From the NCBI RefSeq assembly GCF_009914755.1, contig NC_060936.1: a stretch of DNA of 64,000 nucleotides. One strand, given 5' to 3'. Position 1 is the first letter of the stretch, and every line of letters starts with the position of its first letter. Source of the DNA: the human T2T-CHM13v2.0 reference genome, Homo sapiens. The position numbers and the translations under genes were made by a program. Under the pieces are notes generated by a model that saw nothing but the letters and a program-made list of their open reading frames with translations, was not told the origin of the DNA and ran no database searches. Shown here piece by piece: positions 21,156 to 26,589 of this stretch.

Positions 21156-22596
21156 CAAATGGCTGAACTGTTCAGTGGTTAAGGAGACAGTTATGTGCCA
21201 GAAAGATGTAGTATTTTTTGCATGGTTTAATGAAAATATAAAAGCTATTTGTCCAAATAAAAGCCATCGTCACTATGTACTTGGTTTTGCGCTTTTTTTT
21301 CCTTAAAAAAAAAAAAGGCCACTGAAATGTATAAAATGGTCTGAACATGATGGTGGTATCAAAGTCGATGCCTCTTCACATGGCAATAACAGTGCATTTA
21401 ACATTAACTCACGGGTTAATTCTGCAAATGATTTCATAGCATTACTTTGGCTAGCACAACAGTTTTAGACAGCACTCAGATAAATATAGGTATGTGAAAT
21501 GTAAAGCAATTATCTTATGCAACTTTAATTATGGTTGAGTACTATCAAGTGAAAACTGAAAATAAAAGCACTTTACAGTAGGAAACTTTTGTAAAGATAG
21601 GGCTCCACATAATGTGTAACTTTTAAAGTCTTTATATCACATTGTTAGCAAATTTTGTTTTTTAACACTATCATGGAGTAGCCTACTCTGCATTAGCAGA
21701 CATTTGAAATAAGAAATAGTCAAGCATGCCATGTGGTGGTCTAAAAATCAAAACAATACACTTATTTGTATATACAGCATCACTCAGTACCTGCTAAAAT
21801 GAATGTGAAGATTACAGAATCTAACATCTTATACTACAATAAAAAAAAAGTGACCAATGAAGCAGAAAATAGGAATTAAAAGATCTAACCTCAAATGACT
21901 TTAAAGCATTCATATAAGAAATAAATGCATATTGCACAAACAGTGAAAGCATATGTTCCACCAAGCAATTCAGTTCCAGGTGGGAGACAACACAGCATTA
22001 GCCTAATACATGACAATAATCACAGAAGAGCAAGTGTTCTTTTCTGTAATGAAAAAGCTGTGAAAACATAGAAGACTCTGCCACATGAAGAGTTTAGAAG
22101 GAAAAAATACAAACCCAAACTTAGATGAAAAGCCAAAAAATTTAAATATCGAAAAACTCGAAACTGTGGCACATCAAAAAATGTTGAGTAACTGTCTTCT
22201 GTGAGAGCTGAAAGTTTTTGTTGACACAAAAGTATTTATGTACAACTAAGGCTTACTGGTTAAATATCTGAGGCATATCTGGCCTTGAACACTTTCCTTA
22301 TATGCTGGAGCTGTAAACAAGTTTTCTCAGTCATTAAAAAAAAATCTTCTCAGCAGCTGCATTAACATGAAACAATGGTCTTGATTAAAAAAAAAAACAA
22401 AAAACAAACCAACAACAACAAAAACACCCCAGAAAATTAAACAAAATGAAACAAAAATTCTAGATAAGAGGGCATTTGGCAGGATATCCGAAAATGACAG
22501 TCTCCAAGGATTCTTCCCAGACTTCCAGTGACTGCCAATTATGGTCCACTGGGTTACTAATATGTGCAATTCCATTACTTGCTGCTTTTTTTTTTT

Positions 22597-22683
22597 TTAT
22601 TTGGAAAGTTTGCTTATAACTCTGATCAAGGCCCCATTTTCATCCTTTAGCCTCTGGTTGTCTGCTTTTAGGTCTGGTAACAT
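22597..22683 (-). CDS. PPP1R12A: MYPT1 terminal coding exon: C-terminal leucine zipper (L1007/1014/1021/1028) and stop
   Basis: MLPDLKADNQRLKDENGALIRVISKLSK*; TAG acceptor at 22684-22685, TAA at 22597-22599. Confidence 0.98.
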   Translation of the reverse strand: MLPDLKADNQRLKDENGALIRVISKLSK

Positions 22684-24185
22684 CTATAAAGAGAAAAATT
22701 GAAGATCAAGTTTTACCTTCAATATTAAAAGATAAAACATTATTCTTAATAAATGTTATATTTTCACCACAAAACACATGATCAAGCTTTGTCAGTTATA
22801 TATATTTCTAGTATCTAAAACATGTATCAGGAAGAAGGAAAAAAACCACACCTGGATTTGTAAAGCTAATTAGTTTCATAAATGCTGGAATGAAAGGTTT
22901 ATTCTCTCCAAATTTTCCATTGAAATTTACTAAATCACTTGATTTTATGACTCACAAGCACACCACATTCCAGCAGCCAAGACAAGCCTGTTTTTGTTAG
23001 GATAGGCTCTTAAAAGAGGTTCCTGTCAGCACCTAAACCAAAGACTTTTGCTTTTATGTATGTCAGACCTAAAATCATAATACTTAATATTGTTCCACAA
23101 GAAAGTCAAACTACCTAGGAAAACATTGAGGAAATTAGACTTGTTCTAAATTATTAAAATTCCTTAAACGATTCACCTACAGTAGCTCAGTTTAAAATGC
23201 CTAAACAATGTCCGATCCCAGATAGATGCTTATTAAATGGTAACAAGCAATTACTATTATTAGAATAGTGCATCATGTTTAAGCTAAAGTAGAAAGTCTG
23301 TATCTATGATCCAACTATTACAAAAATAACCAATTTTGAAGCAAATAGCCTCATATCTTCAAACAACACATCTCAATTTTCTGTTGTTTTACAGACAAAT
23401 TGATGAAGGGGTGAAAATATTACAAGTTAACTGAATACTCTACTAAGGATGATTAAAACTGTATGTTCTTTGCCAGTTTCACTAGGAAATGAAATAGCTC
23501 ATATTTTTGGTCCCTAAACCATACTTTCCAAAATAGTCCTCTTTCCTCAGTTTTCAAAATGTATTAGTTTATCTAACTTGATAAAAGTAAAACTTCTATT
23601 TGCAAAACTAGGTAAAGCAAAATCTTTAAGAAGATTTAATTTTACGTGGAACCAATATGTTCTTATCTGTGTTCAGAATCTTTAAGATATAAAATATAGT
23701 AATATTAAGTTTATTCATTTGAATATTTGTAATATAAACTTAAATATAAACTAATGTGGTTCTGACTTCAAATGACATTATTTTGAAAAACATAATGCAT
23801 GCTTAATCTTCAGCTTCAAAATATATTAATTATATGTAAAATGTTATATACTGTTGGTTTTCTCTCTAGTAAAGAACTGTAAATAATAGTCATATTTTAA
23901 GTCCTAAAATATCTGTATAGCTAAAAAATGTGCAAAAGCTTTACAAAAGTACAGATAAGTCTTTAACTTAAATTCCAAAATCATCCCTAATTTTAATGTA
24001 GCTCATCAATTGCAATATACAATTAGTGACAATTTCTAACATTCTAAGAAGCCATGCATAATTAGTTATATGATATGCTCCAGACACAATGGCATTAATT
24101 TGTAAAAGTGAGCTCTTACAAAACACGCCTACTAATATAAAAACACCTGCCTGGCTCTACCAAGAAGAAATGATGAAACTAAAAA

Positions 24186-24320
24186 TTATAGGTTCACAGA
24201 CTGCAGTTGCCTATAGAACCCTGAGCGCTTGGCTACCACTCTTGTCAAGGCCCTATTCTCAGTCAGCAGTCGCTCATTTAACTCCCTCAGAGATTGAATT
24301 TGCTTTATTTGGTGCAGGTT
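24186..24320 (-). CDS. PPP1R12A: Candidate alternative C-terminal exon (44 aa + stop), duplicate of the leucine-zipper exon, MYPT2-like
   Basis: ~50-nt pyrimidine tract then CTGCAG|, followed by [44 protein letters not shown] in phase with exon 25. Confidence 0.7.
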
Positions 24321-25217
24321 CTGCAGGAATCAGAACATAAAGAAATAGGAATAAAAAATAAGAAAATGGAAAAGAGTATAATAAGAATGTAATCACAGGT
24401 AATTTTTTAAAAATATTACGTCTTAAAGGAACAAGAGATTCAGAAAGGTAAACACTGTATTCCTAAAATTCTATTTCAAACTAAGTAATACATAAGCAAA
24501 CAAAATACAAAAGATTTGTCTCCAATCTTCAAAGCCATTCAATAATGGTCTAATAACAAACCAAACAATTTAATAATGAAATATCTAAATCTTGAACTTC
24601 TAATTCTATGGGTACAACATACTTACTATGCACTGGTTCATTAATTCACAATGTGATAAAGATTTTATGAAGGACAGTGTGGTAAGAGGTAATCAATTAA
24701 CTATGCTACTTGTGAAGACATTCAAAACATAATTATTTCTATAGGTAATATGGAGTTTGATAAAATACAGCTCTGCCTGTTCACTCCCCTAATGTCCTTT
24801 ACTTTCAAAGGAGAACATTTTATAGTAACCCCCTCCACTACTTACTCGCCAAAAAACATGAAAGTATATAGAAACATAAAGAATAAATAATAAATCCTAC
24901 ATCTTATTATTATTGTCTAACTTTTTCTATACCTGAACAGCAAAAGTGCTACACAAATTAATTATCAAAATAATTCGGGTTTTATTTTTTATTTTATTTT
25001 TGCTCCTTCTTTTCATAGGTGTTAAGATTTGGGTTTTAGACCCTCTTCTGGCTCACTAAAACCTGGATTCAGGAAGAAAGAGAAGCACCAGATATAGACA
25101 GTTCACAAATTGGGTAATCAGCTTTGAGAACAATTAATGTAAACCATATCTATAATAGTATTTTAAACATTAATACATAAACAGCACTCTCTCTCATAAG
25201 TAACATAGTTTACTTAC

Positions 25218-25268
25218 TTTGAGCTCTTCTTCCATTTCAGATATTCTTCTTTCTAGAGCTCTTCGTTC
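25218..25268 (-). CDS. PPP1R12A: MYPT1 exon 25 (51 nt)
   Basis: ERRALERRISEMEEELK; TAG acceptor, GTAAGT donor. Confidence 0.97.
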
Positions 25269-25988
25269 CTAGATCGATTTAAGGTACCAATGTTAGTTAT
25301 ATAATTATTATATTCTTAAGTCTTCTTCTATACTGTGAAATAGTGATACTTCAGAATTAAAGGTCCAATCAGGAGCAGTGTAGAAAAGATGTGATGCCAG
25401 TGATATGTAAAGAGCTTTCCAAAATTTGACAAAAATAAATATGAAGATCTTTATCCTTAGAGTACAAGCTCTTAATTTAAAGCTTTGACTTTCTGGGAAG
25501 ATGCTACATAACATATTCAAACTACTTTTTGAGTTCATGTAAAACTTAGAGTGAATCAATACTCAAGACTGAAGACTGTACAGAAAAGAAAAACAAAACT
25601 CACACAAAGATGCAATCATATTACAGTGACAGAAGCAGAAAAGCAAGAAGCAAACATGCCTAAAATATGTGTACTTTGCAATTTCAGAGGAATGTAAGAG
25701 AAGCTCATTTCCTCCACTCACAATGTGTACTAGCCATTATTTATCCAACTGACTTTATAGCTTTGTATTTAGGTTGACATTATGTGTAGCATTAATGCAG
25801 TGAATGTAATAGAAAAGCAACTGCAGCGTTTATTTTAAACTTGTTTCAAAGAGTGACAGGCAAAGCCAACACACAACACATTATTGCAGTGTACTGTTTT
25901 ATTCTCCCTTAAATGATAAGCATTCTGGGGTGTTATGCAAAAAGCAAGCAGCAGTAATTGATGAGCTGTAAAACTGGTTAGGTCATAC

Positions 25989-26019
25989 CGCCCAGAAGAT
26001 ACTGACTCTTGCCGGTCAC
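25989..26019 (-). CDS. PPP1R12A: MYPT1 alternative exon E24 (31 nt); inclusion gives the leucine-zipper-negative isoform
   Basis: GTGACCGGCAAGAGTCAGTATCTTCTGGGCG between AAG acceptor and GTATGA donor; frameshift gives VTGKSQYLLGGTKSSRKKNI* with TGA at 25237-25239, the known LZ- tail. Confidence 0.93.
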
Positions 26020-26589
26020 CTTTCAGATACAAACCATTTAAATTTAGTTTAATCACACTGAAACTATTTCCAAGACACTCTTTCCCAGATTAATAAATAA
26101 TGCTGATATTTAGTCAAGCAGTACATTTACTGTAAATGTTAATGTTTTTAGGGTATGTGATTTTAAAAAGTAGACAGAATCCTACTGATCGTCTTTTAAG
26201 TACCATGTTATTCCAACATCGGCATGCCTAAACATTATTGTATAGACAGAAACATTATTTTCAATACATAGATCTTTCTTCTACTAAATAATACAGTCAT
26301 GACAAATTCATACAAATCATCACACTTCTCAAAATACTAGCACATAAAGTGTCATATTTGATCTTTACCACTTTGCAAAATATCAGAAATAGAATATTTC
26401 TTCTGAGAGGTAATCTCCCTATGAGCCTCAATTTTATTAGGTGTCTTCAAGATTTTAAATTAGTGGTAAAGTAAGACAAGAAAACTACACCCAACTGCCT
26501 GATTCTATTAGCTCAATGAAATTGACATCTGTAAAATGATATGAAATTTCTTATGTTTGACAAACATATTAACATTAAAAAATATAACT

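What the first reader, a model, noticed from the sequence alone, without database searches (positions are those of the whole stretch)
24147..24376. Hidden duplicate leucine-zipper exon in the last intron of MYPT1: a possible third C-terminus
Seen: on the minus strand a ~50-nt pyrimidine tract ends in CTGCAG. It is followed, in phase with exon 25, by [44 protein letters not shown] (24320-24186). This aligns with the canonical last exon ([23 protein letters not shown] vs [23 protein letters not shown]). Three heptad leucines are kept and the fourth is Arg (CGC, one base from CTC Leu). A possible donor CAG|GTGTTT at 24147 gives a 174-nt cassette whose stop is 39 nt from the last junction, so it should escape NMD. 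From memory, the paralog MYPT2 (PPP1R12B) has an alternative C-terminal exon beginning [33 protein letters not shown] at the equivalent position. Inference: the exon duplication predates the MYPT1/MYPT2 split. MYPT1 may therefore have a second LZ switch besides E24, making a variant zipper with altered PKG1-alpha or homo/heterodimer binding. The ORF track misses it because it has no start codon.
Basis: partly seen in the sequence, partly recalled or inferred. Interest (0 to 1): 0.92.

Follow-up and report, generated by a model that had tools for sequence, protein, structure and literature searches.

The report
Silent spare zipper exon in MYPT1
The last intron of the human MYPT1 gene holds an intact, unannotated copy of the alternative tail exon used by its sister gene MYPT2, so MYPT1 might make a third kind of tail, but no transcript evidence could be checked here.

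Summary
On the minus strand, a pyrimidine-rich tract ends in CAG. A 44-codon frame (24320-24189, stop 24188-24186) follows in phase 0 with exon 25. A GT donor follows base 24147, making a 174-nt cassette.

- **Paralogy:** its only other match in the human genome is an exon of PPP1R12B (70% identity over 33 residues). That exon lies in the same place, between the E25-like exon and the canonical zipper exon. PPP1R12C has no room for one.
- **The PPP1R12B exon is real:** it forms the C-terminus of small-subunit-sized PPP1R12B proteins in mammals, reptiles and a bird.
- **Coding constraint:** between the two human copies dN/dS is about 0.12. Both have exactly 44 codons, a shared 10-base donor motif, and unusually long AG-free zones upstream (99 and 93 nt).

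The duplication therefore predates the MYPT1/MYPT2 split, and the MYPT1 copy was kept by selection for most of vertebrate history.

Use in humans is not shown. RefSeq lacks it. A 2022 survey of Ensembl transcripts names extra exons only in introns 2, 9, 20 and 22. None of the 9 named proteins recovered is MYPT1-type. I put a live but tightly repressed exon at about 0.45 and a recently retired relic at about 0.4.

The parts
24323..24421 (-). AG-free zone of 99 nt upstream of the acceptor. Its 3' half is the pyrimidine tract (41 of 50 pyrimidines; four TCTT and four TTCT motifs in the last 100 nt).
   Evidence: An AG-free zone of 99 nt is longer than 99% of 353 constitutive chr12 acceptors (median 28). 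The PPP1R12B counterpart has 93 nt.
24321..24322 (-). Acceptor AG (ctgcag|AAC).
   Evidence: PWM score 8.1 bits: 26th percentile of 380 true acceptors, second best of 160 AGs in the last intron, and above 12 of the gene's 16 annotated acceptors in the window.
24189..24320 (-). 44 codons. Residues 1-33 are the zipper part, with heptad Leu11, Leu18, Leu25 and Arg32. Residues 34-44 are a variable tail.
24186..24188 (-). Stop codon TAA at codon 45, the same codon position as in PPP1R12B.
24147..24185 (-). 39 nt of untranslated exon between the stop and the putative donor.
   Evidence: PPP1R12B has 50 nt at the same place.
24145..24154 (-). CCAGGCAG|GT: a 10-base motif across the putative donor (GT at 24146-24145), identical in PPP1R12B.
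   Evidence: Donor PWM score 5.6 bits: 19th percentile of 371 true donors and 7th of 137 GTs in the intron.
25218..25268 (-). Exon 25 (annotated), the upstream partner. It ends in phase 0.
   Evidence: annotation given with the finding.
22597..22683 (-). Coding part of the last exon (canonical zipper). It would become 3' UTR if the cassette is included.
25989..26019 (-). E24, the known 31-nt switch to the zipper-less form. It is upstream of exon 25, so it is a separate switch from the candidate exon.
   Evidence: It differs at one base from the 31-mer printed in PMC5087845. Translated.

Best explanation
This is the MYPT1 counterpart of the alternative penultimate exon of PPP1R12B, the exon that supplies the C-terminal zipper of the small (M21-type) subunit.

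**Origin (inferred, about 0.95 sure).** An ancestral gene duplicated its zipper exon in tandem before PPP1R12A and PPP1R12B separated. Both genes kept the order E25, alternative zipper exon, canonical zipper exon.

**Shown.** The human MYPT1 copy has an open 44-codon frame in the right phase. It also has a usable acceptor behind a long pyrimidine-rich AG-free zone, and a weak-to-moderate donor inside a 10-base motif shared with PPP1R12B.

**Inferred mechanism.** If the exon is spliced between exon 25 and the last exon, it replaces the last 28 residues with 44. It terminates 39 nt before the final junction, which is inside the roughly 50-55-nt limit under which nonsense-mediated decay is not triggered (an established rule, recalled). 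The canonical zipper then becomes 3' UTR. The product would have an M21-like zipper whose fourth heptad position is Arg, plus a different 11-residue tail.

**Most likely state (about 0.45).** The exon is still usable but strongly repressed in most cells. I infer the repression from the weak donor and the long UCUU-rich tract with a probably distant branch point, a layout typical of PTB-type repressed exons (recalled).
For: - **Unique paralogous match** at the same gene position. BLASTP gives 23 of 33 identical and 30 of 33 similar.
- **Pfam:** matches positions 71-100 of the 101-position PF15898 profile at E 3.2e-7.
- **Coding constraint, codons 1-33:** dN 0.154, dS 1.30. There are 12 synonymous-only against 10 non-synonymous codon differences. 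Bootstrap omega has median 0.11 and upper bound 0.39, and 0 of 1,000 replicates reach 1. Random placement of the 25 base differences gives 17.0 +/- 1.8 identical residues against 23 observed (P 0.001), and 60% of placements create a stop.
- **Frame:** the other two frames hold stops in both genes.
- **Length:** 44 codons in all 11 sequences compared.
- **Splice layout:** shared donor 10-mer; AG-free zones of 99 and 93 nt against a median of 28; splice-site scores within the range of real sites.
- **Polarisable zipper sites:** by my reading of the table, Arg17 and Lys31 of the MYPT1 copy match all three canonical exons, while Arg32 is derived. This gives no sign of faster decay than in PPP1R12B.
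- **Neutral drift:** the frame, AG, GT and freedom from indels all survive with P 0.073 at 0.1 substitutions per site and P 0.005 at 0.2.
- **The PPP1R12B exon is a real coding exon:** it is joined to the E25-like exon in 8 named proteins from mammals, reptiles and a bird.
Against: - **No transcript or protein evidence.** None of the 5 RefSeq transcripts uses it. It is not among the extra exons Saldanha et al. took from 23 Ensembl transcripts. Their RT-PCR reaction for E22/E24 variants gave a single band in HUVEC.
- **Protein searches:** 0 of 9 named proteins with this exon type are MYPT1-type. The 44-aa search was blank. The length filters could not have shown full-length MYPT1.
- **Divergence:** the fourth heptad Leu is Arg. 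The copy differs from human PPP1R12B at 10 of 33 zipper positions. Human and sauropsid PPP1R12B differ at only 3 of 33.
- **Scores:** its Pfam score (31.3 bits) is below that of PPP1R12B (37.7) and just under the cut-off of 32.4. The donor lacks the usual +4A and +5G.
- **Intactness proves little.** It is still compatible with neutral drift of up to about 0.1 substitutions per site.
Confidence: 0.45

Rival explanations
1. A recently retired pseudo-exon. It was a working alternative zipper exon of MYPT1 for most of vertebrate history, is no longer spliced in humans, and has not yet had time to decay.
For: - Absent from RefSeq and from the Ensembl-based exon list of PMC9367544.
- Single RT-PCR band.
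- Leu32 to Arg at a heptad position, and 10 of 33 differences from PPP1R12B against 3 of 33 between human and sauropsid PPP1R12B.
- Weaker Pfam score and a weak donor.
- The simulation allows an intact state with P 0.27 at 0.05 and P 0.073 at 0.1 substitutions per site.
Against: - No disabling lesion of any kind: the frame, stop position, AG, GT, pyrimidine tract and 99-nt AG-free zone are all intact.
- If function had been lost at a random time since the duplication, an intact state would be unlikely (P 0.005 at 0.2 substitutions per site).
- RefSeq also omits E24, a well-documented alternative exon. Silence of that annotation therefore means little.
Confidence: 0.4
2. The stretch is kept for a non-coding role, for example as a decoy exon or splicing-control element for the last intron. 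The coding look would then be a leftover.
For: The splice-site layout (long AG-free zone, pyrimidine tract, shared donor 10-mer) is conserved beyond the coding part.
Against: - The differences between the two genes are concentrated at synonymous sites, and only one frame is open in both. That is a mark of selection on the protein.
- The PPP1R12B copy is translated in annotated proteins.
Confidence: 0.07
3. A chance open frame with coiled-coil-like composition.
For: Short coiled-coil peptides often give weak matches to each other. The PPP1R12B peptide matches 10 other coiled-coil families weakly in Pfam.
Against: - Genome-wide E 7.5e-7 to a single locus at the equivalent gene position.
- Same phase, same 44-codon length and a shared donor motif.
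- PF15898 is the only Pfam match of the MYPT1 peptide.
Confidence: 0.01

Closest known systems
Alternative penultimate exon of PPP1R12B (MYPT2), the C-terminus of small-subunit (M21-type) proteins
   Same: - Same position between the E25-like exon and the canonical zipper exon.
- Same phase 0, 44 codons, and stop at codon 45.
- 23 of 33 zipper residues identical.
- The same CCAGGCAG|GT motif after the stop.
- A similarly long AG-free pyrimidine zone.

   Different: - The PPP1R12B exon appears in named proteins of mammals, reptiles and a bird. I found no protein or transcript with the MYPT1 copy.
- The MYPT1 copy has Arg in place of the fourth heptad Leu.
- Its tail is basic and hydrophobic, not acidic and Ser-rich.
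- That PPP1R12B splices on from the shared donor is my inference. I had no exon table for chr1.
MYPT1 E24, the 31-nt switch between the zipper-plus and zipper-less forms
   Same: Both are alternative cassettes near the 3' end of PPP1R12A that change the C-terminus and hence the zipper. In both, the stop falls close enough to the last junction to avoid decay.
   Different: - E24 (25989-26019) lies upstream of exon 25 and acts by frameshift, removing the zipper.
- The candidate lies downstream of exon 25, keeps the frame and swaps one zipper for another.
- E24 is documented by experiment (PMC9367544, PMC5087845, PMC9343278). The candidate is not.
- Including both would put the E24-induced stop far upstream of the last junction (inferred).
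Tandemly duplicated alternative exons, and unannotated exon duplicates found inside introns (Kondrashov and Koonin 2001; Letunic, Copley and Bork 2002; both recalled, not read here)
   Same: A neighbouring exon copy of similar size and the same phase lies in the adjacent intron and offers an alternative version of one protein module.
   Different: It is not strictly mutually exclusive. The upstream copy carries its own stop, so the downstream copy stays in the mRNA as UTR.
PTB-type repressed exons with distant branch points and long AG exclusion zones (Gooding et al. 2006; recalled, not read here)
   Same: A 99-nt AG-free, UCUU-rich zone upstream of the acceptor.
   Different: No binding, branch-point or knock-down data were available. 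This is a resemblance only.

Membership tests
Counterpart of the PPP1R12B alternative zipper exon | Best match to each other in the genome, outside self | tested here: met
   only 2 matches, self and chr1:201836795-201836896, at E 7.5e-7; the PPP1R12B peptide finds window 24320-24222 at E 1.6e-12, ahead of any canonical exon.
Counterpart of the PPP1R12B alternative zipper exon | Same place and order in the gene | tested here: met
   E25-like exon, then the alternative exon, then the canonical zipper exon in both genes. In MYPT1 the flanking introns are 897 and 1,463 nt. In PPP1R12B they are about 5.8 and 5.3 kb.
Counterpart of the PPP1R12B alternative zipper exon | Same phase, length and stop position | tested here: met
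   phase 0, with 44 codons and then a stop in all 11 sequences compared.
PRKG1_interact domain (PF15898), C-terminal zipper part | Profile match at or above the curated cut-off | tested here: inconclusive
   31.3 bits against a cut-off of 32.4, E 3.2e-7. The exon alone covers only profile positions 71-100 of 101; 27.8 bits in the genome scan.
PRKG1_interact domain (PF15898), C-terminal zipper part | Four leucines at heptad spacing | tested here: not met
   Leu11, Leu18 and Leu25 are kept and position 32 is Arg. That is three of four. The Asn15, Asn22 and Val29 positions are kept.
Expressed alternative exon of human PPP1R12A | Present in a curated or predicted transcript | tested here: not met
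   0 of 5 RefSeq transcripts; not among the exons named from 23 Ensembl transcripts. 'intron 25' occurs 0 times in that paper's main text.
Expressed alternative exon of human PPP1R12A | Junction reads, ribosome footprints or peptides | not testable with these tools
   Sequencing reads were off for this job. A full-text search for four peptide strings found 0 papers.
Expressed alternative exon of human PPP1R12A | Conservation of frame and splice sites in PPP1R12A of other vertebrates | not testable with these tools
   No vertebrate genomes were on hand. The protein searches could reach only proteins of 24-77, 40-128 and 68-217 aa. All 9 recovered are PPP1R12B-type.
Decayed pseudo-exon | Stop, frameshift or lost splice dinucleotide | tested here: not met
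   none found.

The most novel reading that the evidence does not exclude
Human MYPT1 has a live third C-terminus. In some cell type or developmental stage where repression is lifted, the cassette is included. The result is a MYPT1 about 16 residues longer, with an M21-type zipper in place of its own. That would change which coiled-coil partners it pairs with (PKG1-alpha, the small M20/M21 subunit, itself). It would add a second, frame-preserving zipper switch beside E24 in the control of smooth-muscle relaxation.
Probability: 0.3. Interest if true: 0.75.

Novelty: new member of a known kind. Interest (0 to 1): 0.5.

Why it matters
The MYPT1 zipper is held to couple myosin phosphatase to cGMP-dependent kinase. 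The E24 switch between the zipper-plus and zipper-less forms is a standard explanation for why smooth muscles differ in their response to nitric oxide (stated in PMC5087845 and PMC9343278, passages read).

A second, zipper-swapping exon would give the field a new isoform to look for, and a concrete pair of junctions to test.

Even if the exon is now silent, it shows three things. The two-zipper layout is ancestral to MYPT1 and MYPT2. PPP1R12C lost it or never had it. And the small-subunit zipper and the MYPT zipper are sister modules.

Tried and rejected
**Searches that came back empty or off-target**
- The 44-residue peptide against named proteins was blank. The length filter allowed only proteins of 24-77 aa.
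- The solved-structure search gave only chance matches, E 0.94 and above.
- Full-text searches found nothing on this exon:
  - four peptide strings, 0 papers;
  - 'PPP1R12A' with 'exon duplication', 0 papers;
  - 'PPP1R12A' with 'novel exon', 3 papers, of which I checked two and both were unrelated;
  - 'PPP1R12A' with 'mutually exclusive', 48 papers, 15 listed. The four I checked concern E24, E14 or gene-level results.
- One search was badly framed: its minimum of two terms let in papers without the gene name. It told me nothing.
- Searches were meant to document PPP1R12B exon use and gave nothing direct. I got that from proteins instead.

**The paper I could not read**
Dippold and Fisher 2014, the bioinformatic study of myosin phosphatase subunits, is the paper most likely to have noticed this exon. 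It is not held. I cannot say whether the exon is already in print there.

**Ideas considered and dropped**
- E24 lying in the last intron or sharing the candidate's acceptor: rejected. E24 is at 25989-26019, upstream of exon 25.
- A hidden copy in PPP1R12C: rejected. Only 94 nt separate its two exons.
- Use as a terminal exon: not resolved. The nearest poly(A) signals are ATTAAA at 23997 and AATAAA at 23715.
- Reading the divergent 11-residue tail as a sign of decay: rejected. The tail also varies among working PPP1R12B orthologues (human against quail, 3 of 11 identical) while keeping its length.
- The Atlas search: not used, because its own description says it is not for known families.
Full report
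**What is in the sequence**

I read the minus strand of 24050-24480.
- A pyrimidine-rich stretch ends in ctgcag, and the first exon base is 24320.
- From there 44 codons run to a TAA at 24188-24186.
- Exon 25 (25218-25268) and the coding part of the last exon (22683-22597) both translate cleanly in frame 1. Every junction here is phase 0, so the candidate is in phase.
- Thirty-nine bases after the stop comes gccaggcag|gtgttt, with the last exon base at 24147. The cassette would be 174 nt.
- Codon 32 is CGC. The aligned PPP1R12B codon is CTC.
- 41 of the 50 bases before the CAG are pyrimidines. Only 8 of the 4,492 AG dinucleotides on this strand of the window have as many.
- The stretch is not repeat-masked.

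**What it is related to**

A six-frame search of the whole reference genome with the 44 residues found two places: itself, and chr1:201836795-201836896 at E 7.5e-7. The second lies inside PPP1R12B.

The canonical zipper peptide of MYPT1 finds three places, one in each of PPP1R12A, PPP1R12B and PPP1R12C.

A local search of the fetched 3' ends shows the same order in both genes:

| Gene | Intron after the E25-like exon | Intron before the canonical zipper exon |
|---|---|---|
| PPP1R12A | 897 nt | 1,463 nt |
| PPP1R12B | about 5.8 kb | about 5.3 kb |

In PPP1R12C the E25-like exon and the zipper exon are only 94 nt apart, so there is no room for a third exon.

A genome scan with the Pfam profile PF15898 scored 117 candidates and returned 14 matches. 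Six of them cover its C-terminal part:
- the three canonical zipper exons;
- the two alternative exons (the MYPT1 one at 27.8 bits);
- a weak hit (20.6 bits, E 1.55) in the neighbouring gene PAWR.

The MYPT1 alternative exon is closer to the PPP1R12B alternative exon (23 of 33 identical, 30 of 33 similar) than to its own canonical exon (12 of 26). Together with the shared order, this means the tandem duplication came before the two genes separated.

**Is the resemblance a coding one?**

| Region compared (PPP1R12A vs PPP1R12B) | dN | dS |
|---|---|---|
| Alternative exon, codons 1-33 | 0.154 | 1.30 |
| Canonical zipper exon | 0.08 | 0.96 |

(Both rows.)

- Of the 33 codons, 11 are identical, 12 differ only synonymously and 10 change the residue.
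- A codon bootstrap gives omega a median of 0.11 and an upper bound of 0.39. None of 1,000 replicates reaches 1.
- Scattering the 25 base differences at random gives 17.0 +/- 1.8 identical residues against 23 observed (P 0.001). It creates a stop in 60% of trials.
- The other two frames hold stops in both genes (all).

Since dS is near saturation, half of it (about 0.65) belongs to the MYPT1 lineage. Even if every amino-acid change had happened there, its time-averaged omega would be about 0.24 (my arithmetic). The MYPT1 copy has therefore been under protein-level selection for most of its history.

Codons 34-44 are not alignable (dN 1.69). This is not decay, because the same tail varies among working PPP1R12B orthologues. 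Human against quail has 3 of 11 identical, and human against fin whale 7 of 11. Yet the tail is 11 residues in all 11 sequences, the MYPT1 copy included.

**The PPP1R12B exon is a real coding exon**
- A search with the 73-residue open frame around the chr1 exon returned two named proteins.
- A second search, with the fin-whale protein restricted to its last 44 residues, returned nine, those two included.
- Eight of the nine are proteins of 124-216 aa from fin whale, camel, two New World monkeys, warthog, rattlesnake, anole and quail.
- In each of the eight, an E25-like exon of the PPP1R12B type joins directly to this exon and the protein ends there.
- Their sizes fit the small subunit that PPP1R12B makes from an internal start (PMC4552530, passages).
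- The ninth is the bird contaminant described under things noticed.
- None of the nine has the MYPT1 type of exon 25. Because of the tool's length window, full-length MYPT1 isoforms could not have appeared, so this is only a weak negative.
- 24 and 32 candidates known from samples alone were left out before scoring in those two searches.

**Splice signals**

I built position weight matrices from 380 acceptors and 371 donors of the 'select' transcripts in twenty gene-dense 10-kb stretches of chr12.

| Site | Score (bits) | Percentile of true sites | Rank in the last intron |
|---|---|---|---|
| MYPT1 candidate acceptor | 8.1 | 26th | 2nd of 160 AGs |
| MYPT1 candidate donor | 5.6 | 19th | 7th of 137 GTs |
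| PPP1R12B acceptor | 7.3 | 21st | not ranked |
| PPP1R12B donor-like site | 1.7 | 2nd | not ranked |

- The candidate acceptor scores above 12 of the gene's own 16 annotated acceptors in the window.
- The ten bases CCAGGCAGGT across the donor are identical in the two genes. The sequence between the stop and that motif does not align.
- The distance back to the previous AG is 99 nt in MYPT1 and 93 nt in PPP1R12B. The median is 28 and the 99th percentile 98 for 353 constitutive acceptors. The maximum is 81 among the 16 real acceptors in the window.

Both copies therefore share an unusual acceptor layout that coding selection cannot explain.

**How it would work (inferred)**

Inclusion between exon 25 and the last exon keeps the frame.
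- It replaces the last 28 residues with 44 and stops 39 nt before the last junction.
- Under the recalled 50-55-nt rule, such an mRNA escapes nonsense-mediated decay. The PPP1R12B exon has 50 nt at the same place.
- The new zipper keeps Leu11, Leu18 and Leu25 and the Asn15, Asn22 and Val29 positions, and has Arg at 32.
- By my reading of the table, at the sites that the three canonical exons can polarise, Arg17 and Lys31 of the MYPT1 copy look ancestral and Arg32 looks derived. With so few sites there is no sign that the MYPT1 copy changed faster than the PPP1R12B one.
- The weak donor and the long UCUU-rich, AG-free tract suggest an exon that is normally repressed. That is a resemblance to PTB-controlled exons that I recall, not a test.

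E24, the known switch, is at 25989-26019, upstream of exon 25. It differs at one base from the chicken/mouse 31-mer printed in PMC5087845, and its frameshift stops inside exon 25. The candidate is therefore a separate, second switch.

**Evidence against present use**
- RefSeq lists five transcripts of the gene here, and none uses the exon.
- Saldanha et al. 2022 (PMC9367544; I read the abstract, sections 3.2, 3.3 and 3.5, and the legends) went through 23 Ensembl transcripts, ESTs and RNA-seq summaries.
  - They name extra exons only in introns 2, 9, 20 and 22.
  - 'intron 25', 'MYPT2' and 'paralog' do not occur in their main text.
  - Their RT-PCR reaction targeting alternative splicing of E22 and E24 in HUVEC gave a single band, confirmed by sequencing as the E22-in, E24-out transcript. 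I did not see where the primers sit.
- RefSeq also omits E24, which the papers I read treat as an established, functionally important switch. Its silence therefore proves little.
- The MYPT1 copy differs from human PPP1R12B at 10 of 33 zipper positions. Human and sauropsid PPP1R12B differ at only 3.

**Live or relic?**

A simple neutral simulation asks how often the frame, AG, GT and freedom from indels all survive. It uses substitutions plus indels at one eighth of their rate, a recalled ratio.

| Substitutions per site | P(all intact) |
|---|---|
| 0.05 | 0.27 |
| 0.1 | 0.073 |
| 0.15 | 0.02 |
| 0.2 | 0.005 |

If the exon is dead, it died recently. By recalled rates that is roughly within placental-mammal time. 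Weighing the intact state against the lack of any annotation, I put:
- a live but tightly repressed exon at about 0.45;
- a recently retired relic at about 0.4;
- a non-coding role at about 0.07;
- chance at about 0.01.

The homology and the ancient origin I hold at about 0.95.

**Comparison with what is known, and novelty**

It works like the PPP1R12B alternative zipper exon and is its counterpart by every test I could run. It falls short as a classical four-leucine zipper, with three of four. It has no evidence as an expressed human exon.

As a kind of thing, a duplicated exon copy lying unannotated in the neighbouring intron, it is known (papers recalled, not read). As a specific exon of MYPT1, I found no mention in the held library. 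I could not read the one paper most likely to mention it. I rate it a new member of a known kind, with interest 0.5. It is neat and directly testable, and it would matter to smooth-muscle biology if expressed, but it currently rests on sequence alone.

**Limits**
- No vertebrate genomes, no reads and no structure prediction (closed) were available.
- There was no exon table for chr1.
- The dN/dS values rest on 33 codons.
- The splice matrices were trained on GC-rich, gene-dense regions, and they score several genuine PPP1R12A sites poorly.

Noticed in passing
window 25989-26019 (minus strand): The known 31-nt E24 exon (the switch to the zipper-less form) is here. An internal AG gives the 13-nt variant. 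It is absent from the RefSeq exon list supplied. On the other strand it is overlapped by the PPP1R12A-AS2 exon 25241-26574.
   Followed up: partly
G000 chr12:79571280-79571369 (minus strand), outside the window, inside PAWR: The C-terminal part of the PF15898 profile matches weakly here (20.6 bits, E 1.55) in the neighbouring gene PAWR. From memory, its product Par-4 is reported to bind MYPT1 through a zipper. The match could be chance.
   Followed up: no
protein P0002 (70 aa, 317-bp contig): A 'hypothetical protein' attributed to Klebsiella pneumoniae (12 member sequences) is intron read-through followed by the PPP1R12B alternative exon. In the exon it is identical to the quail protein P0009. 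It is most likely bird DNA contaminating bacterial assemblies.
   Followed up: partly
L006 566-791 (chr19, PPP1R12C): PPP1R12C has only 94 nt between its E25-like exon and its zipper exon, so it has no alternative zipper exon.
   Followed up: yes
window 22590-22600 (minus strand): The canonical stop codon is followed by an A-rich run that reads on as lysines. PMC9367544 notes that the stop is embedded in an AATAAA and that many ESTs end there, probably by internal priming.
   Followed up: no
window 56671 and 25268 (minus strand): Several genuine PPP1R12A acceptors score very low on a matrix trained on gene-dense chr12 regions (-13.6 and -1.4 bits). Simple splice-site scores are a poor guide in this AT-rich gene.
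   Followed up: no
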